From assembly GCA_037444445.1 (NCBI GenBank), contig JBBIMK010000001.1, positions 5,012 to 69,011 on the forward strand: DNA of 64,000 nt, read 5' to 3'. The stretch is from a bacterium (lineage in GTDB: Bacteria > UBP7 > UBA6624 > JBBIMK01). The number at the start of each line of letters is the position of its first letter. Position 1 is the stretch's first letter. Positions 1 through 13,231 of this stretch are shown in pieces. Below the pieces are notes generated by a model. The model was given only the letters and a program-made list of their open reading frames with translations, was not told the DNA's origin and did not search any database. Position numbers and translations under genes: made by a program.

Positions 1-252
1 CGGGTCGTGGTGGTTTCGGACGAACTCAATAACTGATTCGTCCATTCCCACGAAGTGAGCGATGTTTTGCTTGATGAAATAAGCGCCCACGCCCGAATGG
101 GGCCACTTCTTCACAGCGTACCATTCCTTCGGCTCGTACTTTTCCCTGTGCCTGTGGGACCGCGAAACCAACTTACCGAGGTCGTGGAGGAGGGCGGCGA
201 GGGCGATTTTCAAAGCCCCGGAGGAGGGGGTGGATTTGTCTTCTTTATCCAT
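1..252 (-). CDS. Cas10/Csm1-like protein, N-terminal HD nuclease domain only (gene continues left, beyond the window)
   Basis: Reverse-strand translation from the ATG at 252: MDKEDKSTPSSGALKIALAALLHDLGKLVSRSHRHREKYEPKEWYAVKKWPHSGVGAYFIKQNIAHFVGMDESVIEFVRNHHDP. The HD motif (LLHDLGK) sits about 20 aa from the start. The HSGVGAYF and NHH elements match the layout of the Csm1 N-terminal HD domain (LLHDIGKxxxR..H..VGAxxF...YHH). The frame stays open to the window edge. Confidence 0.5.
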   Translation of the reverse strand, partial: MDKEDKSTPSSGALKIALAALLHDLGKLVSRSHRHREKYEPKEWYAVKKWPHSGVGAYFIKQNIAHFVGMDESVIEFVRNHHDP

Positions 253-302
253 TCTGGCTCTTATTATATCGCAGGATGGGGGGGGTAAGTCCTTTTTAAT
301 TT

Positions 303-731
303 TCATTTCCCCATTTTTTTCAGGAGGATTTTTTCCTGCTGATGGAGCCGGGGGAGGTAATCCCGGTAGAGAAAGCGAACGGTTCGCTCATATTTCAAGC
401 GAATATCTTCTGACTGAGAATAGAGGTATTTGCCAGTTCGGATGATTTCAAACTGGAGAATATAAGGGGCTGTCTGCAGGTCTATGACATCCAGGCGGTC
501 GGTGGGAAGGGCTTGAGAAACATCAGCATAGAAAAGGGAGTCAGAAAAGCCCTCATCCGGAAGAATGGCAAGGTCAATATCTATGGCAGCAGAAAGGTGG
601 GAAGCGGCGGAACCGAAAAGGTAACAGAGCCGAAGGGAATGTCGGGGAAGAAGAGTTTTCAATAACTCCAACCGGTTCCGGATGTCTGCAGGCAGGGGTT
701 TGAGCCCGGCATATTTTTCGGGAAGACTCAT
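303..731 (-). CDS. MNT-type minimal nucleotidyltransferase (HepT/MNT antitoxin-like) with no HEPN partner
   Basis: 142 aa. Pol-beta-type nucleotidyltransferase signature LFGSAASHLSAAIDIDLAIL (GS-x10-DxD). Only 45 nt separate it from the downstream Cas10-like start, so there is no room for a HEPN gene. Confidence 0.75.
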   Translation of the reverse strand: MSLPEKYAGLKPLPADIRNRLELLKTLLPRHSLRLCYLFGSAASHLSAAIDIDLAILPDEGFSDSLFYADVSQALPTDRLDVIDLQTAPYILQFEIIRTGKYLYSQSEDIRLKYERTVRFLYRDYLPRLHQQEKILLKKMGK

Positions 732-744
732 CGTCCTACACCCT

Positions 745-856
745 ACGCATTATATCAGGGGAGGGGGCAAGGGTTGCGGGGCGGGAGGAGACAAGCTCCT
801 CCCCTACATAAGCAATAATACGCATTATATCAGGGGAGGGGGCAAGGGTTGCGGGG
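745..856. repeat. Two perfect 37-bp direct repeats (745-781 and 820-856) separated by a 38-bp unique spacer. Either a mini CRISPR-like array or a tandem promoter/operator duplication.
   Basis: ACGCATTATATCAGGGGAGGGGGCAAGGGTTGCGGGG occurs twice, identically, 75 bp apart. The pair fills nearly the whole cas6-MNT intergenic region. The spacer contains the inverted repeat GGAGGAG...CTCCTCC. Each repeat has a small palindrome GCAAGGGTTGC. Confidence 0.85.
749..757 (-). promoter_or_regulatory. Extended -10 element TGATATAAT (minus strand) inside the proximal repeat, about 17 nt upstream of the MNT ATG
   Basis: The reverse complement of forward 749-757 (attatatca) is TGATATAAT, the TGn+TATAAT consensus. 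An identical copy lies at 824-832 in the second repeat. Confidence 0.45.
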
Positions 857-858
857 GC

Positions 859-1635
859 TCAGGGGTTGAGGGAGGTGGCGCCAAAGCCCATAGGGGTTTT
901 GTAGCCGATTCCGCAAAGGGGGGCGAAGGTGGCGAGAGCGGAGAGCATCTTTCGTTCGGGTTCGGAAAATTGCCCGGGGAAGTGGTATTCGCATTCGCCT
1001 TTGAAGCCGATGATGCTGTAGGTGGAGAAAGGGACGAGTTCAGTGTGGAGGCGGTAGCGGCCCACGAGGATGTGAGAGAAGAGGTTGTTGAGGTCGGGCG
1101 GGAAGGCGATGGGGCTGAAGGCATTCCAGCGGTCTAAAAGGGAAGCAAAGACGAGATGGGGGTCGGGGAAGAGGATGCTTTTCCCTTTCTGACGGAAGCA
1201 GGTGGGGGTGAGGAAGTGGAAGGTGATTCGGGTTGCGGGTTCTGCGTGCTGAAAGATTTCTTCAAAGGAGGTGGAAGCGACTTCTACAGACTGGATTCTG
1301 ATTTTGCCGGAGCCTAAGAGGGAAGGGGAGCGAAGAAGGAAGGCTTTTGTAATGATTTCGGGCTGGGGGCCGAAGTAGTGGAGAATCAAGGTGAACCCTG
1401 TTTTTTCGGAGATGGAAAGGGAGCCTTTTTCGGGACGTTGGGCGGTGAGGAGATGTATGGAGAAGGGTTTCCGGGGAAGGTGATGGAGTCTGTCGGCAAG
1501 GGGGGCGCTGGATTTTTGGAGGAGGGTAAAGAAAAGGGCGTGGGCTTCTTCACCGCCGTAGCCCCGTAGAGATAGAGCCTGGAGAGATTTCAACCGGATC
1601 TGGAAGGAGTGGATGGAGGGATTCACAGGGTTCAA
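859..1635 (-). CDS. cas6: Cas6-family CRISPR endoribonuclease
   Basis: 258 aa. C-terminal glycine-rich loop GIGYKTPMGFG matches the Cas6 GhGxxxxxGhG signature. The N-terminal beta-alpha segment (IRLKSLQALSLRGYGGEEAHALFFTLL) resembles the Cas6 ferredoxin fold start. TTG start. Lies next to the Cas10-like gene. Confidence 0.65.
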   Translation of the reverse strand: MNPVNPSIHSFQIRLKSLQALSLRGYGGEEAHALFFTLLQKSSAPLADRLHHLPRKPFSIHLLTAQRPEKGSLSISEKTGFTLILHYFGPQPEIITKAFLLRSPSLLGSGKIRIQSVEVASTSFEEIFQHAEPATRITFHFLTPTCFRQKGKSILFPDPHLVFASLLDRWNAFSPIAFPPDLNNLFSHILVGRYRLHTELVPFSTYSIIGFKGECEYHFPGQFSEPERKMLSALATFAPLCGIGYKTPMGFGATSLNP

Positions 1636-2840
1636 GCCTTTGAGGTTGGAGGGTTTTGTTCTAATAAGGCGGTTTGGAGGCGTTTTACCATCAGGGTGGC
1701 GTAGGAAGCGGGGGGGAGGGAACAGTGAAGCCAGGCTTTGAGCCTGCCGGGATAGAGTTCATCTGGCTCAAAGGGGCTGAGTTGAAGGGTTTCCGGGAAG
1801 AGAAGGAAATTGCGGGGGGTAGATTTGAAGCAGGCTCTTTTGAGCCACGGCAGGCGAAAGGCTTCTGGAGTGAGTTTTTCACGGGAGAGAATTTCCTCAT
1901 AAACCTTCAGGAATAGAGGGTCGGAAGGAAGTGATGTGGCATCTACCAGCGGGAGTTTTGCTTGCCGGAGGTAGTCGAGTTTGTCGTCAGGAAGGGTTTG
2001 ATAGAAGTAGAAGGAACCAGCCGGATGCTTCCAGATGAGAAAGGGTTCGTCGGGCAGGAATTTTTGGAGGATGAGAATAGCCATTTCGTTCCAGAGGTAA
2101 CTCTGGTAAGCGTTGATGAGAATGGAAAGAAGGTGAGAAGGAATCTGGTTGACGGCCTGTGTGAAGGCGGTGGGGTGGTTTTTTAAGAAGGTGAGAATTT
2201 TTTGCTCACTGCCTCTGGGAGTCAGGGGCAGGGCTTTATGCCAGTTGCCCCAGTGGTGGAAGAGGAAGCGTTTGAAGGCTTTGATGCGGGCGGGGTCTTC
2301 GCGAGATGGCTGGGCGAGGAAGAGTTTCAGGGCACCCTCCGGGTCGTTCTTCAGCAGACGGTCGGCGAAGAACCCCTTCCCGTGACGGGCGCTCCCAAAT
2401 CGCTGCTCGTCAAAGTAGTTCACCACTCCGAACTGAGCGATTTCTTTCAGGGATTGCAGGATTTTTGAGCGGTGGGCCTTCGGTATGTGACGAAGGAGGA
2501 TTTTGAAGCGATTGCCCTTGAGGAGTCGGGAAGTGATAGGTTCATCGGCGTAGCCAATGTGAATGAGGGAAAAGTTCTGCTGGTGGATGGAGCGGGATGG
2601 CGGGGGATTGCCTGTAATGGACAGGTATTGAACGGTAAGGGCATGGCGGTCTTTTAATCCAGCGTAGTGGAAATTTCTTTCTGGTAAGCGAAGGTGACGG
2701 GAGAGGATGGAGACACAGTCCAGGGTGGTGAGGCTCTTTTTTTCCAGGCGAAAGATAGCGTGTTTTCCAGAGGAACTGAGAGTGGGTAGATGGAGAGTTT
2801 CTTCTACGATGAATTCTTCGGGTTTGACTTTAATTTTCAC
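1632..2840 (-). CDS. truD: tRNA pseudouridine synthase TruD/Pus7 family
   Basis: 402 aa. Motifs PEEFIVEE, HYAGLKDRHALT (catalytic Asp in the GxKD motif) and NYFDEQRFG match TruD motifs I and II. GTG start. The stop TGA overlaps the cas6 TTG start (GCTTGAAC). Confidence 0.85.
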   Translation of the reverse strand: MKIKVKPEEFIVEETLHLPTLSSSGKHAIFRLEKKSLTTLDCVSILSRHLRLPERNFHYAGLKDRHALTVQYLSITGNPPPSRSIHQQNFSLIHIGYADEPITSRLLKGNRFKILLRHIPKAHRSKILQSLKEIAQFGVVNYFDEQRFGSARHGKGFFADRLLKNDPEGALKLFLAQPSREDPARIKAFKRFLFHHWGNWHKALPLTPRGSEQKILTFLKNHPTAFTQAVNQIPSHLLSILINAYQSYLWNEMAILILQKFLPDEPFLIWKHPAGSFYFYQTLPDDKLDYLRQAKLPLVDATSLPSDPLFLKVYEEILSREKLTPEAFRLPWLKRACFKSTPRNFLLFPETLQLSPFEPDELYPGRLKAWLHCSLPPASYATLMVKRLQTALLEQNPPTSKA

Positions 2841-2890
2841 GGTGGCATGTTAGGGCAAGAGGGTGAGAGGGCAAGAGGGAGAGAGGGCAG
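2841..2890. repeat. Imperfect tandem 16-mer (AGGGCAAGAGGGWGAG, about 2.5 copies); pyrimidine-rich on the transcribed (minus) strand just upstream of truD
   Basis: gggcaagagggtgagagggcaagagggagagagggcag read directly from the sequence. Confidence 0.6.
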
Positions 2891-3286
2891 TTATTTTGAG
2901 TTCCTCCTATTGGCTTGCTTCTTCCTTAAAGTTCCGATGAATGGGTTCAGCATGGGCAAAATTTCAAGGCAACTGGACTTCCTTGCTGAAAAAGTATCTT
3001 CATCAATAAAAATGAGGGTGTGGGGCTTGATGAGCCAGTTTAAGGTTTCGTGGGTAGACCCTCGTGCAATGGTGAGGGAATGAATATATTCAGCCCCACT
3101 TCGCCTGTCCCAGCCTTCAGCGATATTGGTGGAAATAGAGCCAGTGGAACGGATAAGTTTCCCAGCAATTGTCCGTGGGGAGGTTTTCGGTGGAAATCTT
3201 TCTACATCTTCTGCTACTCGGAGGAATAGTTCATGAGCCTTTCGCCATAAAACCAGCTCCTGAAAAGATTCCACTTTTTTCTCCAT
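2891..3286 (-). CDS. Four-helix-bundle protein (23S rRNA intervening-sequence protein / bAvd-like family)
   Basis: 131 aa. Segment NIAEGWDRRSGAEYIHSLTIARGSTHETLNWL is typical of the TIGR02436/PF05635 family. Confidence 0.6.
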   Translation of the reverse strand: MEKKVESFQELVLWRKAHELFLRVAEDVERFPPKTSPRTIAGKLIRSTGSISTNIAEGWDRRSGAEYIHSLTIARGSTHETLNWLIKPHTLIFIDEDTFSARKSSCLEILPMLNPFIGTLRKKQANRRNSK

Positions 3287-3438
3287 TCCAAGAGTTCATT
3301 ATATCTGATGTGGAAAGCGGTGAGACTCCACCGGAGCTTGTGTCCTTTGCATTTCCTATTCTCTGAACTTCCGTGCCCTCATCGTCTTTTGTCCCCTCGC
3401 TCTCCCTTTGGTATGATAAAGACAGGAGGGATGGAAGG

Positions 3439-3876
3439 ATGGCATATTTGAAGGAAATAGAGTTTAGCACGAAGGGGTTTAATCATATAGTGGATATTAC
3501 GGGGGATGTGCAGAAGGCGGTGGAGGAGTCAACTTATCGTGATGGGCTTGCCTGTGTGTTTGTGGCGGGGTCTACTGCTGGGGTGACGACGATTGAGTTT
3601 GAGGAAGGAGTGCTGGAGGATTTATCTAAGGCGATAGAGCGGATGGCACCGCAGAATATTCCATACGCTCACGACAGGAAATGGGGGGATGGGAATGGGT
3701 TTTCTCATGTGAGGGCGGCGCTGGTGGGGGCTTCACTGACGGTGCCATTTCAGGCGCGAAGATTGTTGCTGGGAACCTGGCAGCAGGTGGTGCTGGTGGA
3801 TTTTGACAACCGCCCCCGAAGGCGAAAGGTTTTTATTCAGGTTCTTGGAGGAAGAGAGGAAGGGGTGAGCGAGTAA
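3439..3876 (+). CDS. YjbQ/UPF0047 family protein (secondary thiamine-phosphate synthase-like)
   Basis: MAYLKEIEFSTKGFNHIVDITGDV...; aggagg Shine-Dalgarno before the internal ATG at 3439. Confidence 0.65.
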   Translation: MAYLKEIEFSTKGFNHIVDITGDVQKAVEESTYRDGLACVFVAGSTAGVTTIEFEEGVLEDLSKAIERMAPQNIPYAHDRKWGDGNGFSHVRAALVGASLTVPFQARRLLLGTWQQVVLVDFDNRPRRRKVFIQVLGGREEGVSE

Positions 3877-3890
3877 AAGGGGGAAGGCAA

Positions 3891-5633
3891 GTGGAAGAAA
3901 AAATCTGGTTTAAGTATTATGACAATTATGTGAAAAAGCATCTGGAATATCCAGATATTTCCCTTCATGAGTTGGTCTCATCAAGAGCCAGGGAGCACTG
4001 GAATAAAACTGCTCTGGTGTTTATGCAATATCGGATGAGTTATAAGCAACTGGAAGAAGAAAGCAACTGTTTTGCGCATTTTTTGTTGAAGAAGGGGATT
4101 GGGAAGGGGAAGCAGGTGGTGCTGGTGCTGGCGAACACGCCGCACTTTCCAGTGGCGTATTATGGGGTATTAAAGGCGGGGGCAACGGCGGTGCCGGTGA
4201 ACCCATTATATACTGCCCGGGAACTGGTATATTTTTTGAAAGATTCTGAAGCTTCTCTGGTGGTCGCGTTTGATATGTTTGCGCAGCGGGTGAGGAGTGC
4301 GTGCGAAGAGGCGGGGATTCGGGATGTGGTGGTGGGGAGTGCGGCGGATTATCTTCCACCCATTCAAGCGTTTCTGTATCGTTTCCTGAAAAAGGGAAGG
4401 GGAGAAGGAAAGCAGAGAAGCGAAGGAGGGATGAGGAGTTCAGGGGTTGAAAATCGGGGTGGGGAGTTCGGAGTTCGGAGTTCGGGGTTGAAGGGTTTCA
4501 GTGCTAAAGAATTGGTGGGAATAGGGTTTCGGCAGGCATTGAGAGAAGGCTCACCCTACCCTACCGGGGTTCAGGTGAAGGGAGATGACCTGGCGACATT
4601 GATTTATACGGGTGGAACGACTGGAGTTTCTAAGGGGGCTATGCTATTACATCGGAATTTAGTGGCAAATACTTTACAGTGTTCTGCGTGGTTTCCCGAG
4701 ATCAGCCAGGGGCGAGCCACTTTCGTGGCGGTGATGCCATTTTTTCATTCCTTTGGCCTCACAGTGGCATTGAATTTTGGGCTGTATATGGGGGCGGAGA
4801 TTGTGTTAATTCCCCGGTTTCATGCCAGAACCCTGCTTGAAACATTACAGATACTTCGTCCACCGGTTGTTCTTCCCGCAATTCCTTCTATCTTTTCAGC
4901 GATTAACCACTTTCCGAGGATTGAGCAGTATAATCTTTCATCGCTCTGGGTTTCTATCAGCGGTGGTGCGCCATTGCCGGTAGAGGTGCAGAAGAAGTTT
5001 GAAGCATTAACTCATTCTATACTGGTGGAAGGGTTTGGGCTGACGGAAACTTCACCGGTGACCCATGTGAACCCACTCCTCGGGAAGCGGAAGGAGGGGA
5101 GTATTGGATTACCTTTGCCGGATACGGATGTGAAGATAGTGGATGTGGAAAATGGTAAGAAGGAACTACCGGCAGGAGAAGAAGGAGAAGTTATTATCAA
5201 AGGTCCTCAAGTTATGGCTGGCTACTGGAAGAATGCGGAGGAAACGGCGAAAGTTCTTATGGATGGGTGGCTTTACACGGGCGACATCGGAAGGATGGAT
5301 GAAGACGGGTTCTTTTATATCGTGGACCGGAAGAAGGATATGGTTATCACGGAGGGGTTTAATGTATTTCCGAGGGAGATTGAGGAGGTTTTATATACTC
5401 ATCCGAAGGTGAAAGATGCGGCGGCGGTGGGCGTAAAAGACCGCTTAAAAGGAGAAGTGGTGAAGGCGTTCGTAGTTCCTAAGGAGGGCGAAATCCTGAC
5501 AAAAGAAGAAATCCTGAACTACTGTCAGGAGCATCTTGCCTGGTATAAAGTTCCGAAGTCTGTGGAATTTTTGCAGGAGTTGCCCAGAAGCGCCATCGGG
5601 AAAGTGTTGAGAAGGGAATTGAAAAAGCAATGA
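3891..5633 (+). CDS. fadD: Long-chain fatty-acid--CoA ligase (AMP-binding superfamily)
   Basis: YTGGTTGVSKGAMLLHRNL (A3 motif), GYWKNAEETAK, GDIGRMDEDGFFYIVDRKKD. GTG start preceded by aagggggaagg. Contains a G/R/S-rich low-complexity segment. Confidence 0.85.
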   Translation: MEEKIWFKYYDNYVKKHLEYPDISLHELVSSRAREHWNKTALVFMQYRMSYKQLEEESNCFAHFLLKKGIGKGKQVVLVLANTPHFPVAYYGVLKAGATAVPVNPLYTARELVYFLKDSEASLVVAFDMFAQRVRSACEEAGIRDVVVGSAADYLPPIQAFLYRFLKKGRGEGKQRSEGGMRSSGVENRGGEFGVRSSGLKGFSAKELVGIGFRQALREGSPYPTGVQVKGDDLATLIYTGGTTGVSKGAMLLHRNLVANTLQCSAWFPEISQGRATFVAVMPFFHSFGLTVALNFGLYMGAEIVLIPRFHARTLLETLQILRPPVVLPAIPSIFSAINHFPRIEQYNLSSLWVSISGGAPLPVEVQKKFEALTHSILVEGFGLTETSPVTHVNPLLGKRKEGSIGLPLPDTDVKIVDVENGKKELPAGEEGEVIIKGPQVMAGYWKNAEETAKVLMDGWLYTGDIGRMDEDGFFYIVDRKKDMVITEGFNVFPREIEEVLYTHPKVKDAAAVGVKDRLKGEVVKAFVVPKEGEILTKEEILNYCQEHLAWYKVPKSVEFLQELPRSAIGKVLRRELKKQ

Positions 5634-5655
5634 ACACCATACACGCGATTACGAG

Positions 5656-6789
5656 TTAGATTCCCAGTAAAGATTGGTAGACCTGGAGAGTTTTCTGTGT
5701 AAATTGCTGGATGGAAAAATGATGCATGGCGCGAAGGAATCCTGCTTCTCCCATTTTTTTCGCTTTTTCAGGGTTTTGAAATAGTTCCTGAAGGGCATCG
5801 GCGAGAGAAGAAGTGTCGCCGGGCGGGAATAAAATGCCCGTTTCACCGGGCTGGATGACATCCAGGATTCCACCGTGGGCAGAGGCAATTACCGCCTTTT
5901 TCATTGCCATTGCCTCCAGGGCAGTTCTACCAAATGCCTCGGGTACCGTGGATGGAACCACTACTACATCTAAGATGCTGAGATAGAGGGGAACATTTTC
6001 AGTGAAGCCGGTGAAACGGACGAATTCCTGGAGATGCCATTGATTGACGAGATTGAGCATAGAGTTTTTGTAGCCTATATGGGCCCTGGCATCGCCCACA
6101 ATGACTGCATAGAGGGGATAGTTTTTTTTATGGAGAAGCGATAATGCCTTCAAGAAGACCAGATGCCCTTTTCCGGGAGAAAGCCTGCCAATCATACCTG
6201 CTACAAAAGCATCTGTGGGGATGTGGAGTTGTTCTCTCAATCGGGCGCTTTCCTGCATAGCAGGGGGAGCAAATTCATTGAAGTTGATGCCCCGTGGTAT
6301 GACGATGATTTTATGTGAGGGAATGCGGAATTTTAACACGAGGTAATCCGCAAGGGGATGACTGACCACGATGATTTTCTCACCCAGCATAATGGAGCGT
6401 GAGAGGAGATGAGGACGGTAATAACCGTGTGCCGTGGTCAGAAAATGACAGGAAGTAGAGCGCGTGGCAAGATAGGCAACCCACGCGGGCATGCGAGAGC
6501 GAGCATGAACGATTTGTATCCCTTCTTTCTGGAGGAATCGCTTTAGAGGGAGTATGCAGGAAAGGGCGAGGAAAGGGTTTTTGGAACCGATGGGGAGAGT
6601 GAAGTGCACTCCGCCGATTTTTTCAATTTCAGAGACGAGCCTGCCTCCACCGGAAACCACACAGGGATTGGAGCCAGATTGAACGAGGGCATGAGCAATT
6701 TCAACAGTGCCTCGCTCCACACCCCCGTAGTCCAATCGTGGAAGCACCTGCAACACTTTCATAGGTAACTCATGTAAATTATAGACCAT
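5656..6789 (-). CDS. Glycosyltransferase family 1 (GT4-like)
   Basis: C-terminal EAFGRTALEAMAMKKAVIAS, typical of the GT-B E-x7-E region. Confidence 0.8.
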   Translation of the reverse strand: MVYNLHELPMKVLQVLPRLDYGGVERGTVEIAHALVQSGSNPCVVSGGGRLVSEIEKIGGVHFTLPIGSKNPFLALSCILPLKRFLQKEGIQIVHARSRMPAWVAYLATRSTSCHFLTTAHGYYRPHLLSRSIMLGEKIIVVSHPLADYLVLKFRIPSHKIIVIPRGINFNEFAPPAMQESARLREQLHIPTDAFVAGMIGRLSPGKGHLVFLKALSLLHKKNYPLYAVIVGDARAHIGYKNSMLNLVNQWHLQEFVRFTGFTENVPLYLSILDVVVVPSTVPEAFGRTALEAMAMKKAVIASAHGGILDVIQPGETGILFPPGDTSSLADALQELFQNPEKAKKMGEAGFLRAMHHFSIQQFTQKTLQVYQSLLGI

Positions 6790-6815
6790 AAGGGCATAAG
6801 CCTTATAATAGAGGT

Positions 6816-8624
6816 GTGTGCGGGATTGCCGGGATTCTTCGGTTTGATGGCGGGAAAGTAGAGCAGGACTGGCTGAAGCAGATGGCGGAGAGTTTGAAAC
6901 ACCGGGGTCCGGATGGAGAGGGGTATTATGTGGACCGGGCGGAGAGATTTGGGCTGGCTTTCCGCAGGCTTGCCATTATTGACCTGGTGACGGGCGACCA
7001 GCCTATGTGCAACGAAGATAGCTCCATCTGGATTGTCTTGAATGGAGAAATTTACAATTTTATTGACATCCGAAGGCAGCTGGACGGGCACGGGCATTAC
7101 TTCAAAACCCAGAGTGATACGGAAAGCGTTCTTCATGCTTATGAAGAGTGGGGCCCGGATTGCATAGAGAGATTGCGAGGGATGTTTGCATTTCTGATTT
7201 TAGACCTGCGTTCCAGGAAGATATTCTTCGTTCGCGACCGCCTGGGAATTAAACCTTTTTATTACTCCTTCCAGAGCGGTATTTTTACCTTCGCCTCTGA
7301 ATTGAAAGCATTTCATCGGTTACCTTTCCTGAACCTGGAGATACATATACCTTCAGTAGTTGACTATCTGCGATATGGATATGTGCCATCGCCGGCAACG
7401 ATTTTTGCGGGTATTCATAAATTGCCTCCTGCCTGTGCGGGTGTGATAGATTTCAGCCGTGAAAGGGTTCTCCCGGTGGAGCCCATAGTGCGCAGGTACT
7501 GGAAGCCCCGATGGGAAGCCAATGAAAAACCCACCCTGAAAGAGTGGATGAAAAAGTTAGAGGAGAAGTTGAAGGAAACTGTCTCCACCTACCTGGTGTC
7601 GGATGTGCCGCTGGGAGCCTTTTTAAGCGGTGGAACGGATTCCTCTACTGTGGTGGCATTGATGGCACAGACGGCAGGTAAGGAGAGGGTAAAAACTTTC
7701 TCTATCGGGTATAAAGAGCGTCTGTTCAATGAACTTCCTTATGCTCGTCTGGTGGGGAAAAAGTATGAAACAGAATCTACGGAAAAGATTATTGCTTCTG
7801 AGGAACTGGAGAAAGCGGCAGAGCAGTTACCCCGGATTTTTGATGAACCATTTGCGGACTCTTCCGCATTGCCAACTTACTGTGTTTCAGCACTGGCAAG
7901 TGAAAAAGTAAAGGTGGCTCTCTCTGGAGATGGTGGGGATGAATTGTTCGCAGGTTACGGAAGATATAGAAAGGTTCTGAAAATGAGCCACGGGGGATTT
8001 TCCCTCCTGAAATGGCGATGGACTCCCGTGCATCCCCTCGAAATCTTTGAAAGCGGTCAGCGAATTTTTACCGATGCACAGATTTCGCAAATTATTCTTC
8101 CAGAATATTCTCCTTACATTCACCCATCGGACTATTTTCTTCAGTTTTTTGAAGAAGGAGCCGAGTGGGATCTACTTTCTGCACTTCAGCATATAGATTT
8201 AATGACCTACCTGCCTGAAAATAACCTGACGAAGGTGGACCGGGCGAGCATGGCTCACGGGTTAGAGGTTCGGGTGCCATTTCTGGACCATGAAGTCGTG
8301 GAACTGGCTGTGACAATTCCTCCTGAGTTACGACACCCGGGCAGGCAGAGGAAATATATCCTGAAAAAGGTGATGGAATCTCACCTGCCACGGCGGGTGC
8401 TTTACCGAAAGAAACGTGGGTTTTCTATTCCTCTTCGTTTGTGGATGAAAGGGGGATTTCTGAAGAAAGTGAAAGAGAGCCTGCTTTCACCGGAGATGAG
8501 AAATTTTGCGACAGAAAAGGGTGTGATGAAACTACTGAAGGAACAGGAAAAAAATCCACGCCGGATGTCAGCCCATCTGTGGGCATTACTTTTCTTTAGC
8601 CGGTGGCTGACCACCTGGAAGTGA
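6816..8624 (+). CDS. asnB: Asparagine synthase (glutamine-hydrolysing)
   Basis: N-terminal MCGIAG Ntn-amidotransferase start; SGGTDSS PP-loop. Confidence 0.9.
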   Translation: MCGIAGILRFDGGKVEQDWLKQMAESLKHRGPDGEGYYVDRAERFGLAFRRLAIIDLVTGDQPMCNEDSSIWIVLNGEIYNFIDIRRQLDGHGHYFKTQSDTESVLHAYEEWGPDCIERLRGMFAFLILDLRSRKIFFVRDRLGIKPFYYSFQSGIFTFASELKAFHRLPFLNLEIHIPSVVDYLRYGYVPSPATIFAGIHKLPPACAGVIDFSRERVLPVEPIVRRYWKPRWEANEKPTLKEWMKKLEEKLKETVSTYLVSDVPLGAFLSGGTDSSTVVALMAQTAGKERVKTFSIGYKERLFNELPYARLVGKKYETESTEKIIASEELEKAAEQLPRIFDEPFADSSALPTYCVSALASEKVKVALSGDGGDELFAGYGRYRKVLKMSHGGFSLLKWRWTPVHPLEIFESGQRIFTDAQISQIILPEYSPYIHPSDYFLQFFEEGAEWDLLSALQHIDLMTYLPENNLTKVDRASMAHGLEVRVPFLDHEVVELAVTIPPELRHPGRQRKYILKKVMESHLPRRVLYRKKRGFSIPLRLWMKGGFLKKVKESLLSPEMRNFATEKGVMKLLKEQEKNPRRMSAHLWALLFFSRWLTTWK

Positions 8625-8671
8625 TGGCAAAAGGGCAAGAAAGCAGAAAGAGGCATAAAGATTTTTCTGTT

Positions 8672-10810
8672 CTATGCGGTTTTGTCCTGTGCGGTAAGCA
8701 GAATGCGAGCATCCACGACGAAAGCACCCTGGCCTTCAGGCATAGCGAGAAGAGGGTTAATGTCCAGTTCATCAATATCTTGAAGTTCTGTGGCAAGCTG
8801 GGATAGGCGTTCCAGGTATTCCACAATGCGGGGAATATCAGAGGGGGGCTCACCCCGGAAGCCCCGGAGGATAGAATACCCTTTGATTTCCGTAATCATG
8901 CGTCGGGCGCCAAGTTCACGGATAGGTGCGATGCGGAAGGTTACATCCTTGAAGGCTTCCACATAAATTCCTCCGAGGCCAAACATCAAAAGAGGTCCGA
9001 AGTGAGGGTCCTTTCGCATGCCGAGGATGGTTTCTTTTCCACCCGAAATCATTTTTTGAACCAGAACACCCCAGATAGGAGCATCAGGTTGTGCGGATTG
9101 GATTCTCTTCAACAGATAATGATATTCCCTTCGGAGCATATAAGAGTTTTGGATATTCAAGACCACTCCACCTAAATCCACCTTGTGGATGATACTGGGA
9201 GAAACAATTTTAAGAACTACCGGGAAACCGATATTTTCTGCGTATGAAACGGCTTCTTCCTCGCTGGTGGCAAGGGCGTAGGGAGAAATGGAGAAACCGT
9301 AAGATTCTAAAATGCGGTAAGTTTCAGGTTCGGGGAGGAAAAGGCGTTTTTCTTCTCTGGCTTTTTTCAGGGTCTGTCGGGCGATTTCAGGATGGATATC
9401 AGTGAAAAGGTGGACGGGGGTTCTGGGGCGGTGAACCCACCAGGCGTATCTGGCCATATAAGCCAGAGCACGCACCGCTGATTCCGGGAAGCGGTAGTTG
9501 GGAATATTGGCCGAGTCCAGAATCTGGAGGGTAGAGCCAATGTCACGAGTTGCCATAAAAGAAGCGAGGACAGGCTTTGAGGATGCCTTCGCCAGGCGAA
9601 CGATGGTATGGGCAATGGCGGTGGAATCGGTGGCAATGTGAGGTGTGCAGATAACGAGAATGGAATCTATGGCATCGTCTTCCAGAACGAGTCGTAGTGC
9701 GGATTCATATCGGTCTTCCTTTGCATCTCCAATGAGGTCAATGGGATTTCGGAGAGAAGCGGTAGGTGGAAGGATACTCTGAAGTTTTTTAAGAGTAGAA
9801 GGGGAAGGCTCGGGGAGAGAGAGTCCATGTCGTATGGCGGTGTCCGTAGCGATGATGGCGGGACCGCCGGCGTTGGTAATGATAGCCAGGCGGTTTCCGC
9901 GGGGTAGAGGCTGGGTTGAAAAAGCCGTGGCATAATCAAAGAGTTCTTCTAAGGTGTTAACGCGAAAGACACCGCACTGTTCAAACAGAAATTCGTAGGC
10001 TTCGTCGGTGCCTGCGAGGGCAGCGGTATGGGAAGCGGCAGCCTTCGCTCCTTCTACGGTTCGGCCAGATTTAATAGCGAGGATGGGCTTGGATTTCGGC
10101 AAATCTCCGGTAATTTGTGAAGCAATTTCTATGAAGCGTTTCGGATTCTCTAAATCTTCAAGATAGAGGAGAATCACATCGGTCTGGGGGTCGGAGGCTA
10201 AAAAAGCAAGCAGGTCATTTTCTGAGATGTCCGCTTTGTTTCCGACAGAGATGAATTTAGAAATGCCAATATTCTGGGCTTGAACATATTCCAATGCGGC
10301 GGCTCCCAAAGCGCCACTCTGGGAGATAAAAGCAATATTCCCCGGTTCAGGCATTACACGGCCAAAGGTGGCATTGAAACGAATGGCAGGGTCAGCATTG
10401 ATGACGCCAAAACAGTTTGGGCCAATCAGGGATATGTGGTAACGGCTTGCCACAACCCGTAAAGATTCCTGTCGGTTTATTCCCTCTTCCCCCAGTTCAG
10501 CAAAGCCCGCAGAAATGATAATGGCGCCTTTTACACCCTTTTTACCACAGTCTTCCATAACCGCCACCGCTTTCGTGCAGGGAACTACTACAACGGCCAG
10601 TTCCACCTCATCCGGAATGTCCAGCACAGTGGGATAACAGCGCACACCGAGAATACTCCGGGTGGAGGGATTTACTGGATAGACAACGCCCGAGTAACCG
10701 CTGAAAAGGATGTTAGAGAAGATAGCATGGCCTATGGAGCCAACCCGTCGTGAAGCCCCGATGACCGCTACGGATGTGGGCGACAATAGTGAGCGAACTT
10801 CTTTTTCCAT
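8672..10810 (-). CDS. ADP-forming acyl-CoA (acetyl-CoA) synthetase, fused alpha-beta
   Basis: 712 aa. N-terminal CoA-binding VAVIGASRRVGSIGHAI; C-terminal ATP-grasp region. Confidence 0.75.
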   Translation of the reverse strand: MEKEVRSLLSPTSVAVIGASRRVGSIGHAIFSNILFSGYSGVVYPVNPSTRSILGVRCYPTVLDIPDEVELAVVVVPCTKAVAVMEDCGKKGVKGAIIISAGFAELGEEGINRQESLRVVASRYHISLIGPNCFGVINADPAIRFNATFGRVMPEPGNIAFISQSGALGAAALEYVQAQNIGISKFISVGNKADISENDLLAFLASDPQTDVILLYLEDLENPKRFIEIASQITGDLPKSKPILAIKSGRTVEGAKAAASHTAALAGTDEAYEFLFEQCGVFRVNTLEELFDYATAFSTQPLPRGNRLAIITNAGGPAIIATDTAIRHGLSLPEPSPSTLKKLQSILPPTASLRNPIDLIGDAKEDRYESALRLVLEDDAIDSILVICTPHIATDSTAIAHTIVRLAKASSKPVLASFMATRDIGSTLQILDSANIPNYRFPESAVRALAYMARYAWWVHRPRTPVHLFTDIHPEIARQTLKKAREEKRLFLPEPETYRILESYGFSISPYALATSEEEAVSYAENIGFPVVLKIVSPSIIHKVDLGGVVLNIQNSYMLRREYHYLLKRIQSAQPDAPIWGVLVQKMISGGKETILGMRKDPHFGPLLMFGLGGIYVEAFKDVTFRIAPIRELGARRMITEIKGYSILRGFRGEPPSDIPRIVEYLERLSQLATELQDIDELDINPLLAMPEGQGAFVVDARILLTAQDKTA

Positions 10811-10870
10811 ATTCTATCCTTATTGTAAGGGAAGTTATAATGCTTCACAAAATGAGCGGATCGTTGTAAA

Positions 10871-11950
10871 ATGAATCATGGGATGAAAGCCGTAGCAGGA
10901 GCAGAAACGCTGGCTGAGATTTTAGACGGGCTGACAGTAGAAGGGAGGCTTTATGACCGATTGCCGGGAGAGAAGGTTCGCTGTTATGCCTGCGGGCATC
11001 GGTGTGTCATATTCAATGGACAGCGCGGGATTTGCCAGGTTCGGTACAACAAAAATGGGGTTCTTTATGTGCCTTATGGATATGTGGGGGCTCTTCAATG
11101 CGACCCGATAGAAAAGAAACCCTTTTTTCATGTGTTACCCGGTAGCCGGGCTCTCACTTTCGGAATGCTGGGTTGTGATTTTCACTGCTCTTACTGTCAG
11201 AACTGGCTCACGAGCCAGGCATTGAGGGACCCGGCAGCGGGAGTCTCACCGATGGAAGTCACACCGGAGCAAATGCTGGAACTGGCAAAACGGTTTCAAG
11301 CGGATCTGGTGGTCAGTTCGTATAATGAACCCTTAATTACCTCTGAATGGGCGGTGGGAATCTTTCAACTGGCAAAGCAATCGGGATTACGAACCGGATA
11401 TGTATCCAATGGAAATGTAACGGGTGAAGTGCTGGATTATCTCCACCTTTACACAGACTGTTACAAGATAGATTTGAAAACGATGAATGACCGGAATTAT
11501 CGGAAACTGGGCGGAGTTCTGCAACATGTACTGGACGCCGTGAAACTGGTATATGAAAAGGGATTCTGGCTGGAAGTTGTGACCCTGGTGATACCGGGAT
11601 TTAATGATTCAGATGAGGAACTCCGGGAAGCGGCACGATATATTGCAGGTGTGTCAACGGATATTCCCTGGCATGTCACAGCGTTTCATAAGGACTATAA
11701 GATGACAGACCCTGATAACACTCCGCCGAAAACTCTATTGCGGGCGGCAGAGATTGGAAGAGAGGAAGGACTTCATTTCGTCTATGCTGGGAATTTGCCG
11801 GGCTGGGTGAAAAGTCTGGAAAATACTTATTGTCCGACCTGTCACACTTTATTGGTTCAACGCTACGGTTATACGATTGAAAAAGACTTATTAAGCGGGT
11901 CTGGCTCTTGCCCACAGTGCCAGACGAAAATTCCCGGCATCTGGCAGTAA
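10871..11950 (+). CDS. Radical SAM protein, AmmeMemoRadiSam (AmrS) / PFL-activating-enzyme-like
   Basis: CDFHCSYC (Cx3Cx2C), plus an N-terminal Cys cluster CYACGHRC and a C-terminal CPTC...CPQC. Confidence 0.65.
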   Translation: MNHGMKAVAGAETLAEILDGLTVEGRLYDRLPGEKVRCYACGHRCVIFNGQRGICQVRYNKNGVLYVPYGYVGALQCDPIEKKPFFHVLPGSRALTFGMLGCDFHCSYCQNWLTSQALRDPAAGVSPMEVTPEQMLELAKRFQADLVVSSYNEPLITSEWAVGIFQLAKQSGLRTGYVSNGNVTGEVLDYLHLYTDCYKIDLKTMNDRNYRKLGGVLQHVLDAVKLVYEKGFWLEVVTLVIPGFNDSDEELREAARYIAGVSTDIPWHVTAFHKDYKMTDPDNTPPKTLLRAAEIGREEGLHFVYAGNLPGWVKSLENTYCPTCHTLLVQRYGYTIEKDLLSGSGSCPQCQTKIPGIWQ

Positions 11951-11980
11951 AGGTAAAGAAGAGAAAAGCACAGGCTATAT

Positions 11981-12925
11981 TCACTTATCTGAGGGGCGAC
12001 TGGTTGTGGAAGGAGGTTCTGGATGTCCGCCGCCCCAGAGCATCGGTAAAGCATGGAATAGACCCGGTAAAATTGCCTGGAGAGATTCAGAAGCGCCCTT
12101 AGAACTGCCGGGTAGATTGACAATCAGGGTTTTCCCTTTCACGCCGGCGATTCCTCTGGAGAGCATGGAGTAAGGGGTGCGACGCTGGCCAAAGGCTCGT
12201 GCTGCTTCCAGGATTCCGGGAACTTCACGGTCAATGATGGCCTCTGTAGCTTCAACGGTTACATCTCGGGGTCCCAGCCCTGTTCCGCCTGTGGTCATAA
12301 TCAGGTCTATGCCTGCCTGACATTGCTTCAGGAGTTCCTGGATGATTTTCTCTCGGTCGTCAGGTAAAATCACATAGGACTCTACTTGCACTCCGTTGGA
12401 TTTTAGTAGTTCGGCGATGATTTTGCCGGATTTGTCCTGACGCTTACCTGCATAAGTACCATCGGAGGTTACAATCACAGCCGCTCGTAAAGGTTTTTCA
12501 AAAAAGGTGAGAAAATCTTTTTTTCCACCTTTCTTTTCAAGCAGGCGTATTGATTGAATCTCCAGGGTTTCATCCAGAGGTTTCAGCATATCATAGGCAG
12601 TGAGAGCGGCCAGCGTTGCGGCGAGAAGCGCTTCCATTTCTACCCCTGTTTTCCACACGGATTTCACATGGCTCTGAATGAGAAGGGAGGATTCCTGGAG
12701 GGTGAACTCCAGAGTGACAGCATCCACTGGAACAGGGTGGCAAAAGGGAATGAGTTCGGAGGTGCGCTTGGCGGCCAGGATGCCCGCCGTCCTTGCGACT
12801 TCTAAAACATTGCCCTTCGGCACTGACTGATTTTCTATAGATTTCCGTGTGGAAGGAAGCATTTTCAAGATAGCCTCGGCTTTCGCTTCCCGGAGTGTAT
12901 CCGGCTTCGGGCTCACATCTATCAT
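11981..12925 (-). CDS. moaC: Bifunctional MoaC (cPMP synthase) / MogA-MoaB (molybdopterin adenylyltransferase)
   Basis: N-terminal MoaC-like half; C-terminal MogA motif GGTGLGPRD. Confidence 0.8.
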   Translation of the reverse strand: MIDVSPKPDTLREAKAEAILKMLPSTRKSIENQSVPKGNVLEVARTAGILAAKRTSELIPFCHPVPVDAVTLEFTLQESSLLIQSHVKSVWKTGVEMEALLAATLAALTAYDMLKPLDETLEIQSIRLLEKKGGKKDFLTFFEKPLRAAVIVTSDGTYAGKRQDKSGKIIAELLKSNGVQVESYVILPDDREKIIQELLKQCQAGIDLIMTTGGTGLGPRDVTVEATEAIIDREVPGILEAARAFGQRRTPYSMLSRGIAGVKGKTLIVNLPGSSKGASESLQAILPGLFHALPMLWGGGHPEPPSTTSRPSDK

Positions 12926-12967
12926 CGTCCTGACACTCCCATAATAAAGAAATTCACCGGATGATGG

Positions 12968-13231
12968 CTATCCTCCGCTAATGGGTGGAAGGACAGCAAT
13001 TTCTTCATCACCCTGAAATTGGTAAGTATCCTCGGGGAGAGTTTGATTGACTGCGAAGGCCAATGCATCACCCAACTTCTGGAGTTTCGGGTATTTCTCA
13101 AATAGAAGATTTTTCAGCACCTTCAGAGTGGGGTTCTCCGGCAGGTCCATCCATTCTTCCTTCACACCTGTTATTTGCTTCGTTTGAGCAAAGTATAAAA
13201 TTTTCACCCTATGAGAGGATGAGAAAGCCAT
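12968..13231 (-). CDS. moaD: Molybdopterin synthase sulfur-carrier subunit MoaD
   Basis: Ends in GG; MoaD-like. Start taken at the internal ATG (MAFSSS...) to avoid overlap with moaA. Confidence 0.65.
   Translation of the reverse strand: MAFSSSHRVKILYFAQTKQITGVKEEWMDLPENPTLKVLKNLLFEKYPKLQKLGDALAFAVNQTLPEDTYQFQGDEEIAVLPPISGG

What the first reader, a model, noticed from the sequence alone, without database searches (positions are those of the whole stretch)
859..2840. TruD-family pseudouridine synthase translationally coupled to a Cas6 endoribonuclease
The TruD stop TGA and the Cas6 TTG start overlap (GCTTGAAC at 1632-1635), so the two genes are almost certainly co-transcribed. TruD carries its intact catalytic motif (HYAGLKDRHA, NYFDEQRFG). 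The Cas6-like protein has the canonical GhGxxxxxGhG loop (GIGYKTPMGFG). No known cas gene neighbourhood includes a Pus7/TruD-type RNA-modifying enzyme. This could be a chance insertion of cas6 behind housekeeping truD. It could also mean a functional link, for example crRNA or tRNA-derived guide modification, or a tRNA-processing Cas6.
Basis: partly seen in the sequence, partly recalled or inferred. Interest (0 to 1): 0.8.

Follow-up and report, generated by a model that had tools for sequence, protein, structure and literature searches.

The report
Housekeeping truD abutting a cas6 gene
An ordinary tRNA pseudouridine synthase gene (truD) is followed, with a 4-base overlap, by cas6, the first gene of a CRISPR-Cas locus; one related genome shares the junction, but nothing indicates that the two enzymes work together.

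Summary
On the minus strand, truD (2840->1632, 402 aa) and cas6 (1635->859, 258 aa) pass their family models. The truD stop TGA overlaps the first possible cas6 start, TTG.

The adjacency is not specific to this genome. A metagenomic relative (L008, about 80% nucleotide identity, fully syntenic) has the same junction as ATGA and an intact cas6 that its annotators missed. Synonymous divergence of cas6 matches its neighbours, so the pair was inherited together.

The proposed functional link is not supported.
- truD sits in conserved housekeeping synteny.
- All other relatives of this Cas6 (72%, 61%, 43% and about 30% identity) lead or sit in type I or type III cas operons with no truD nearby.
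- None of 80 diverse truD loci carries a cas6 of this subfamily.
- In the window, cas6 is followed by an inserted mntA antitoxin gene and then a Cas10-type HD nuclease ORF that runs off the left edge.

Two perfect 38-nt repeats just after cas6 are not a CRISPR array. They look like a duplicated mntA promoter.

Verdict: a CRISPR-Cas locus lies against truD, and cas6 is probably expressed by read-through. This is ordinary and of low interest.

The parts
1632..2840 (-). truD, tRNA pseudouridine synthase D family, 402 aa, GTG start at 2840, TGA stop at 1634-1632
   Evidence: Pfam PF01142 at 217 bits. NCBIfam TruD models at E 1e-81 but below their equivalog cutoffs. More than 2000 homologues annotated as TruD. 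80% identical syntenic orthologue in L008. dN/dS 0.16.
859..1635 (-). cas6, CRISPR pre-crRNA endoribonuclease, 258 aa from TTG 1635 (or 255 aa from GTG 1626), TGA stop at 861-859
   Evidence: PF10040 and TIGR01877 above cutoffs. PADLOC Cas6/Cas6d at E 1e-27. T. thermophilus Cas6B 4C98 at E 8e-20. Relatives head cas operons.
1632..1635 (-). 4-nt stop/start overlap TTGA (truD TGA, cas6 TTG)
   Evidence: Read directly from the sequence. The homologous position in L008 is ATGA (L008 11182-11185). A single ungapped-through-junction blastn alignment joins window 2848-868 to L008 9993-12000.
819..856 (-). Copy 1 of a perfect 38-nt direct repeat, starting 3 nt after the cas6 stop. On the minus strand it reads CCCCGCAACCCTTGCCCCCTCCCCTGATATAATGCGTA and carries an extended -10 box, TGATATAAT.
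   Evidence: 2 copies, 0 expected by chance. It is not the cognate CRISPR repeat type. It has no stable fold.
744..781 (-). Copy 2 of the 38-nt repeat, placing TGATATAAT about 20 nt upstream of the mntA ATG. This is the probable mntA promoter.
   Evidence: One copy of CCCTGATATAAT is conserved at the same place in L008, 12008-12019.
303..731 (-). mntA-like nucleotidyltransferase antitoxin gene (142 aa), inserted between cas6 and the HD gene. Its hepT partner is missing.
   Evidence: Pfam Polbeta PF18765 at 51 bits. NCBIfam MntA at 57 bits, cutoff 60. 75% identical to L008 mntA, which has hepT downstream.
1..306 (-). 5' part of a Cas10-type HD nuclease ORF running off the left edge of the window. 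ATG at 252, with the frame open from ATG 306, where 5 relic hepT codons overlap the mntA stop.
   Evidence: Translations. PADLOC Cas10 at E 1.3e-7, matching profile positions 1-52. Pfam HD at 30 bits. 65% identical to P0136, the HD gene between cas6 and cas10/csm2-5 in L090. 43% identical to the 801-aa Csm1 P0138.

Best explanation
truD is this organism's ordinary tRNA pseudouridine-13 synthase gene, sitting in conserved housekeeping synteny. cas6 is the leading gene of a CRISPR-Cas locus that lies directly against the 3' end of truD. The locus is probably type III-A/D (Csm-like), because cas6 is followed by an inserted mntA gene and then a Cas10-type HD ORF that leaves the window.

With no space, terminator or recognisable promoter between them, cas6 is most likely transcribed by read-through from truD. 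It is then translated by termination-reinitiation at the overlapping [T/A]TGA. The genes downstream of cas6 have their own TATAAT-type promoters.

Cas6 would cut pre-crRNA repeats of the ...AATTCCC-NNN-GGGAATTGAAAC type seen in its relatives' arrays. Such an array must lie outside the 64-kb window. TruD would act on tRNA independently.

Shown: family membership, the overlap, its conservation in one relative, the synteny, the cas contexts of all other Cas6 relatives, and the absence of Cas6 at other truD loci. Inferred: co-transcription, translational coupling, the rest of the csm operon beyond the window edge, and the lack of a functional interaction.
For: - Family assignments hold.
- L008 is syntenic from moaC to mntA at about 80% nucleotide identity. 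There truD follows yjbQ and overlaps an intact cas6 as ATGA.
- dS between window and L008 is 0.68 for cas6 and 0.74 for truD, against 0.77-1.14 for five flanking genes, so the pair was inherited vertically. dN/dS is 0.27 for cas6, 0.16 for truD and 0.06-0.14 for the flanks.
- Cas6 relatives are the first gene of cas operons without truD: L001/L009 (72%, type I-like cas3...cas7-cas5-cas4/1-cas2 plus a 12-repeat array), L002-L007 (61%, III-B cmr) and L090 (43%, cas6-HD-cas10-csm2-5 plus a 4-repeat array). L091 (about 30%) sits inside a type III locus.
- The window HD ORF matches the Cas10 N-terminus and the L090 HD gene up to the window edge.
- An HMM of this Cas6 subfamily finds nothing in 80 truD loci from other phyla.
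- No terminator or consensus promoter lies at the junction.
Against: - The left continuation of the locus could not be retrieved, so the csm operon is inferred from 84-102 codons only.
- The HD protein has no entry in the 5.8-billion-protein collection, although Cas6 and TruD from the same contig do. It may therefore be a pseudogene or be cut by a contig end.
- L008 keeps truD-cas6 under purifying selection although no effector cas gene lies within 9 kb downstream. A plain 'cas locus next to truD' picture does not predict this.
- No cognate CRISPR repeat exists in the 64-kb window.
- Only two genomes carry the junction, so conservation may be no more than ordinary synteny.
Confidence: 0.72

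Rival explanations
1. cas6 here is a stand-alone or relic gene. The neighbouring effector operon is degraded or absent, and the HD ORF is a remnant like the 36-38 aa HD mini-ORFs in relatives. Cas6 then either serves CRISPR arrays and effectors encoded elsewhere in the genome, or is on its way to loss. truD is still only a neighbour.
For: - L008 has truD-cas6-mntA-hepT and then ordinary genes, with no cas10 or csm genes in 9 kb.
- The HD protein is not in the protein collection, whereas Cas6 and TruD of the same contig are.
- L001 and L004 carry truncated copies of the same HD N-terminus.
- hepT has been deleted in the window, which shows that this region decays and rearranges.
- There is no CRISPR array in 64 kb.
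Against: - The window HD ORF stays open for at least 102 codons, up to the window edge. It retains the H...HD...HHD motifs and is 60-65% identical to an intact HD gene that heads a csm operon.
- cas6 dN/dS is 0.27. Three-taxon branch estimates give about 0.25-0.28 on both the window and L008 branches, so cas6 is not decaying.
- L008 has an assembly gap (a run of N) 300 nt after the toxin-antitoxin pair.
Confidence: 0.2
2. truD and cas6 form a functional two-gene module. Either TruD pseudouridylates crRNA or pre-crRNA, or this Cas6 processes tRNA or tRNA-like RNAs that TruD modifies. On this reading the coupling is selected.
For: - The overlapping junction is kept in two genomes that differ at about 20% of nucleotides.
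- In L008 the junction persists without adjacent effector genes, with cas6 under purifying selection.
- Literature searches found no earlier description of a TruD-Cas6 pairing.
Against: - All neighbouring genes are equally syntenic between the two genomes, so the conservation needs no selection on the pair.
- Every other Cas6 relative lacks truD.
- 80 truD loci lack a Cas6 of this subfamily.
- TruD is a typical full-length family member, about 40-44% identical to TruD proteins of many phyla, with no extra domain.
- No tRNA gene or CRISPR repeat lies near the pair.
Confidence: 0.05
3. The two perfect 38-nt repeats after cas6 are a minimal CRISPR array (two repeats, one 37-nt spacer) processed by this Cas6.
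For: The dimensions (38-nt repeat, 37-nt spacer) and the position directly after cas6 fit a CRISPR array.
Against: - There are only two copies.
- The repeat shows no similarity to the repeats used by the closest Cas6 relatives, which share AATTCCC-NNN-GGGAATTGAAAC. That signature is absent from the window.
- The repeat has no stem-loop (z -0.75), and there is no Rfam CRISPR-DR match.
- Each copy carries TGATATAAT pointing at mntA, and L008 has a single copy of that box at the same place.
Confidence: 0.03

Closest known systems
Thermus thermophilus Cas6B/Cas6A (PDB 4C98, 4C97, 4C8Y), PF10040-type Cas6 endoribonucleases serving type I and type III systems
   Same: The protein aligns over nearly its full length (E 8e-20), including the N-terminal ..AHxLFFxLL.. 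helix, the FLTPT strand, LVFxSLLxRWN and the C-terminal glycine-rich loop GxGxKTxxGxG. It has the same two-domain size of about 260 aa.
   Different: Identity is only about 30%. Here the gene overlaps the stop codon of a tRNA-modification gene instead of standing on its own or inside a cas operon. The cognate repeat was not found in the window.
cas6-first type III-A/D locus in metagenome contig Ga0484001_0002636 (L090): cas6 - HD - cas10 - csm2 - csm3 - csm4 - csm5 - CRISPR
   Same: Cas6 is 43% identical. The HD ORF is 60-65% identical and in the same order after cas6.
   Different: L090 has no truD upstream and no mntA between cas6 and the HD gene. Its operon and 4-repeat array are visible, whereas in the window they lie beyond the edge.
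Bacterial TruD (E. coli TruD 1SB7/1SI7/1SZW; Methanosarcina mazei TruD 1Z2Z), tRNA pseudouridine-13 synthase
   Same: The Pfam TruD match covers the full length. The catalytic GxKD motif (AGLKDRHA), the NYFDEQRFG motif and the C-terminal SYAT motif are all present.
   Different: The scores fall below the NCBIfam equivalog cutoffs, as expected for a poorly sampled lineage. The short C-terminal tail overlaps the cas6 start.
MntA/HepT (MNT-HEPN) toxin-antitoxin cassettes embedded in CRISPR-Cas loci
   Same: A nucleotidyltransferase antitoxin gene sits between cas6 and the effector genes. L008 and L001/L009 have complete MNT+HEPN pairs at the same spot, flanked by direct repeats.
   Different: In the window the toxin gene is reduced to 5 codons fused in frame to the HD ORF.

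Membership tests
TruD / Pus7 pseudouridine synthase family (Pfam PF01142) | Full-length match to the family HMM above the gathering score | tested here: met
   217.4 bits against a cutoff of 27, covering residues 2-387 and profile positions 17-411 of 412.
TruD / Pus7 pseudouridine synthase family (Pfam PF01142) | Catalytic aspartate in the GxKD motif, and the NxFxxQRFG motif | tested here: met
   AGLKDRHA and NYFDEQRFG are present. G61, K63, D64, N141, Q146, R147, F148 and G149 are invariant across 14 homologues. They align to AGTKDKRA and NFFGIQRFG of 1Z2Z.
tRNA pseudouridine(13) synthase TruD, NCBIfam equivalog level | Score above the curated equivalog cutoff | tested here: not met
   TIGR00094 scores 165.2 against 172.2, and NF002160 scores 274.5 against 428. 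The protein is in the family but is too divergent for automatic equivalog naming.
tRNA pseudouridine(13) synthase TruD, NCBIfam equivalog level | Pseudouridylation of U13 in tRNA | not testable with these tools
   This needs an enzymatic assay.
Cas6 endoribonuclease (TIGR01877 / PF10040) | Match above the curated cutoffs | tested here: met
   TIGR01877 scores 71.8 against 58.65. PF10040 scores 75.5 against 25. PADLOC Cas6 covers residues 14-257 at E 8e-27.
Cas6 endoribonuclease (TIGR01877 / PF10040) | C-terminal glycine-rich loop GhGxxxxxGhG | tested here: met
   The loop GIGYKTPMGFG is present. G242, G244, Y245, K246, M249, G250 and G252 are invariant in alignment A1. It aligns to GVGAKTPYGMG of 4C98.
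Cas6 endoribonuclease (TIGR01877 / PF10040) | Encoded next to other cas genes | tested here: inconclusive
   A Cas10-type HD ORF lies 550 nt downstream but is cut by the window edge. The close relatives are all in cas operons. L008 shows none within 9 kb.
Cas6 endoribonuclease (TIGR01877 / PF10040) | A CRISPR array with a cognate repeat in the vicinity | tested here: not met
   There is no array in 64 kb. The relatives' repeat signature AATTCCCNNNGGGAATTGAAAC gives 0 matches with up to 3 mismatches.
Cas6 endoribonuclease (TIGR01877 / PF10040) | Sequence-specific cleavage of repeat RNA | not testable with these tools
   This needs a cleavage assay.
Type III (Csm) CRISPR-Cas locus | The signature gene cas10, with an HD domain and palm/cyclase domains | tested here: inconclusive
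   Only the HD part is visible (84-102 codons). It matches PADLOC Cas10 at E 1.3e-7 and Cas3 HD at E 4.6e-6. The best full-length relatives are the L090 HD gene, which is followed by cas10-csm2-5, and the Csm1 protein P0138.
CRISPR array (for the 2 x 38-nt repeats at 744-856) | Several regularly spaced repeats of a type matching the local Cas6, usually with a stem-loop or a conserved 3' handle | tested here: not met
   There are only two copies. The repeat is unrelated to the relatives' repeats, does not fold and has no Rfam match.
MntA/HepT type VII toxin-antitoxin system | An MntA nucleotidyltransferase together with an adjacent HepT (HEPN) toxin | tested here: not met
   MntA scores 57 bits against a cutoff of 60. 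hepT is reduced to 5 codons in the window, whereas it is intact in L008.

The most novel reading that the evidence does not exclude
The truD-cas6 pair is a selected two-gene RNA-processing module. In L008 it is kept, translationally coupled and under purifying selection, although no effector cas genes are adjacent. On this reading, either Cas6-bound or processed RNAs are pseudouridylated by TruD, or this Cas6 has been recruited to process a non-CRISPR RNA alongside a tRNA-modifying enzyme.
Probability: 0.05. Interest if true: 0.7.

Novelty: new member of a known kind. Interest (0 to 1): 0.15.

Why it matters
If the mundane reading holds, the finding matters little. It shows that a CRISPR-Cas locus can settle directly against a housekeeping gene, so that cas6 loses its own promoter region and is probably expressed by read-through and translational coupling.

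It also shows that gene callers can miss such a cas6, as the JGI calls on L008 did.

The more interesting by-product is evolutionary. Behind one conserved cas6, related genomes carry three different effector modules (type I, III-B, III-A). Relic copies of the same Cas10 HD N-terminus and independently inserted MNT/HEPN cassettes mark the swap points.

A true TruD-CRISPR functional link would be new biology, because no crRNA pseudouridylation is known. The data here give no positive support for it.

Tried and rejected
Retrieving the window's own contig beyond its left edge failed.
- Exact-protein look-ups for Cas6 (258 and 255 aa), TruD (window ORF and P0016) and MntA found nothing on record.
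- A GTDB genome scan with the Cas6 alignment found no relative.
- The metagenome scan found only L009, a twin of L001.
- A word-index protein search with the 84-aa HD fragment found nothing. The exhaustive HMMER search rescued it.

The mini-CRISPR idea for the 38-nt repeats was considered and rejected.

I looked for a truD remnant next to cas6 in L001 and L004 and found none.

I looked in the window for a second truD or cas6, other cas genes, tRNA genes and Rfam families, and found none.

Literature searches for TruD+Cas6, for pseudouridine synthase plus CRISPR-linked neighbourhoods, and for orphan Cas6 returned nothing relevant.

The 80 loci are therefore a sample, not a census, and none is closer than 39% identity.
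Full report
**Observation**

Both genes lie on the minus strand. truD runs 2840->1632 (402 aa) and cas6 runs 1635->859 (258 aa).

TruD matches Pfam PF01142 end to end at 217 bits. It carries the GxKD catalytic motif (AGLKDRHA) and NYFDEQRFG. These are invariant among 14 homologues and align to the solved TruD of M. mazei. It scores just below the NCBIfam equivalog cutoffs, so it is a divergent but complete family member.

Cas6 passes PF10040 and TIGR01877. It also matches PADLOC Cas6/Cas6d models and T. thermophilus Cas6B at E 8e-20, and it ends in the glycine-rich loop GIGYKTPMGFG.

The junction reads ...AAG GCT TGA on the minus strand, with TTG (1635-1633) overlapping TGA (1634-1632). TTG is the first possible start. 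The public annotation uses GTG three codons later (P0001, 255 aa). No terminator-like or sigma-70-consensus site lies between the genes.

**What surrounds it**

Three bases after the cas6 stop there are two perfect 38-nt direct repeats (819-856 and 744-781), 75 nt apart. Next comes an mntA-like nucleotidyltransferase gene (731->303).

After that an ORF begins at 252, with its frame open from 306, and leaves the window. Its 84 visible residues form an HD domain. The best matches are the N-terminus of Cas10 (PADLOC E 1.3e-7) and then Cas3-HD.

An exhaustive HMMER search found two informative relatives:
- A 199-aa HD protein, 65% identical. In its contig (L090) it sits between cas6 and cas10-csm2-csm3-csm4-csm5.
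- An 801-aa Csm1 protein, 43% identical.

The window's cas6 is therefore the first gene of what looks like a type III-A/D locus, interrupted by mntA, and the rest lies beyond window position 1. tblastx with three relatives' cas operons finds nothing else in the window. The window has no second truD or cas6, no tRNA gene, no Rfam match and no CRISPR array.

**Relatives**

This Cas6 subfamily is rare: 15 hits in 5.8 billion proteins, only three of them above 60% identity.

| Relative | Identity to window Cas6 | Context | truD nearby? |
|---|---|---|---|
| P0002 (L001/L009) | 72% | Same chromosomal neighbourhood (radical SAM, asparagine synthase, GT4). Order: UDP-glucose dehydrogenase, cas6, MNT, HEPN, cas3..., cas7, cas5, cas4/1, cas2, 12-repeat array | No |
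| P0003 (L002-L007) | 61% | cas6 heads a III-B cmr operon | No |
| L090 Cas6 | 43% | cas6 heads a csm operon with a 4-repeat array | No |
| L091, L092 | about 30% | L091 lies inside a type III locus | No |

The arrays of L001, L009 and L090 share AATTCCC-NNN-GGGAATTGAAAC. That signature is absent from the window.

Starting from TruD, the closest homologue (P0017, 80% identity) lies on the JGI contig L008. This contig is collinear with window 292-13000 at about 80% nucleotide identity: moaC, radical SAM, acetyl-CoA-synthetase-like, asparagine synthase, GT4, AMP-binding, yjbQ, truD.

The JGI gene calls show no cas6 there. The DNA nevertheless contains an intact 278-aa cas6 ORF (L008 11182-12018, 74% identical) whose ATG overlaps the truD TGA as ATGA. 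One blastn alignment runs through the junction.

The truD-cas6 overlap is therefore shared by two genomes. Divergence between the window and L008 is as follows:

| Gene(s) | dS | dN/dS |
|---|---|---|
| cas6 | 0.68 | 0.27 |
| truD | 0.74 | 0.16 |
| five flanking genes | 0.77-1.14 | 0.06-0.14 |

The pair was thus present in the common ancestor and inherited with its surroundings. Three-taxon branch estimates from the same distances give about 0.25-0.28 for cas6 on both branches, so cas6 is functional in both lineages.

In L008, cas6 is followed by mntA-hepT, a run of N and then ordinary genes. No cas10 or csm genes occur within 9 kb.

Finally, 80 truD loci from GTDB species representatives were examined, all at 39% identity or less and from many phyla. 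None contains a Cas6 detectable with an HMM of this subfamily within 6 kb.

**The 38-nt repeats**

They are not a CRISPR array.
- There are only two copies.
- They have no similarity to the cognate repeat type.
- They have no fold (z -0.75).
- On the minus strand each carries TGATATAAT, an extended -10 box. The proximal copy sits about 20 nt before the mntA ATG.

L008 has one copy of CCCTGATATAAT at the same place. The simplest reading is a duplicated mntA promoter segment.

**Interpretation**

truD is a housekeeping gene in its conserved place. A cas6-led CRISPR-Cas locus lies against its 3' end, and cas6 is probably expressed by read-through and reinitiation at [T/A]TGA. The downstream genes have their own TATAAT boxes.

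Nothing indicates that TruD acts on crRNA or that Cas6 acts on tRNA. The adjacency is confined to one small clade. It is no better conserved than the rest of the synteny, and it is absent from every other relative of either protein.

Two things keep this from certainty. First, the left continuation of the locus could not be fetched, and the HD protein is missing from the protein collection. It could be a pseudogene or be cut by a contig end. Second, L008 keeps a selected cas6 behind truD without nearby effector genes. Known stand-alone cas6 genes that serve distant arrays (for example in T. thermophilus, from my own knowledge of the Cas6A/B literature) make this unremarkable. It is nonetheless the only observation that leaves room for the novel reading, to which I give about 5%.

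**Novelty and score**

Both proteins are new members of well-known families, and the gene pair is a lineage-specific juxtaposition. Literature searches found no earlier report of a TruD-Cas6 link, and the present data do not establish one. Interest: 0.15.

Noticed in passing
window 744-781 and 819-856: Two perfect 38-nt direct repeats lie 75 nt apart, directly after the cas6 stop. Each carries TGATATAAT on the minus strand. The 37-nt segment between them contains a GGGAGGAG/CTCCTCCC hairpin, and the 131-nt region folds at z -3.2. This is probably a duplicated mntA promoter and not a CRISPR array.
   Followed up: yes
window 1-306 (minus strand): hepT, the toxin partner of mntA, is reduced to its first 5 codons (MKIKK). 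These overlap the mntA stop as ATGA and run in frame into the Cas10-type HD ORF. mntA is therefore an orphan antitoxin, and the HD ORF may be translationally coupled to it.
   Followed up: partly
window 170-212; L004 11005-11047; L001 11898-11940: A 43-nt segment encoding LKIALAALLHDLGK is 93% identical in L004 and 86% identical in L001. There it sits in 36-38 aa mini-ORFs in front of unrelated effector operons (III-B cmr2 and a type I cas3 operon). This suggests that effector modules were swapped behind a conserved cas6, leaving relics of a Cas10 HD N-terminus.
   Followed up: partly
L008 11182-12018: The JGI gene calls miss an intact 278-aa cas6 and instead call three short antisense ORFs (105, 28 and 55 aa). 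Annotation-based neighbourhood surveys would overlook this truD-cas6 pair.
   Followed up: yes
L008 12022-12071 and 12894-12943; L009 10917-10948 and 11882-11913 (L001 is a near-identical twin): The MNT/HEPN toxin-antitoxin cassettes between cas6 and the effector genes are flanked by direct repeats: 50 nt at 96% identity in L008, and 32 nt at 81% in L009 and its twin L001. This looks like independent cassette insertions with duplication of the target. The two cassettes are unrelated in sequence.
   Followed up: partly
window 2852-2889; L090 14826-14961, 15498-15545 and 517-627; L008 13180-13210: G-rich simple tandem repeats occupy intergenic DNA around these loci. They include AGGGCAAGAGGGAGAG x2.4 upstream of truD, GAGGGAAC 8-mers on both sides of the L090 CRISPR-cas locus, and GGGAGAA repeats at the L008 assembly gap. 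Their function is unknown.
   Followed up: no
window 2891-3286 (minus strand); L008 13279-13647: A four-helix-bundle '23S rRNA intervening sequence protein' gene lies directly upstream of truD in the window (50-nt gap). In L008 its 47%-identical counterpart lies downstream of the toxin-antitoxin pair. This is a local rearrangement, and the window may have an IVP-truD-cas6 transcription unit.
   Followed up: no
window 4463-4489: A 7-nt tandem repeat (GGAGTTC x3.9) lies inside the AMP-binding (acyl-CoA synthetase-like) gene. That gene is 580 aa here and 567 aa in L008.
   Followed up: no
L004 10986-11096 and 11078-13921 (same in L002-L007): The 36-aa HD-motif mini-ORF overlaps the start of the cmr2 gene in another frame. 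This could be a relic, a frameshift or a mis-called start of Cas10.
   Followed up: no
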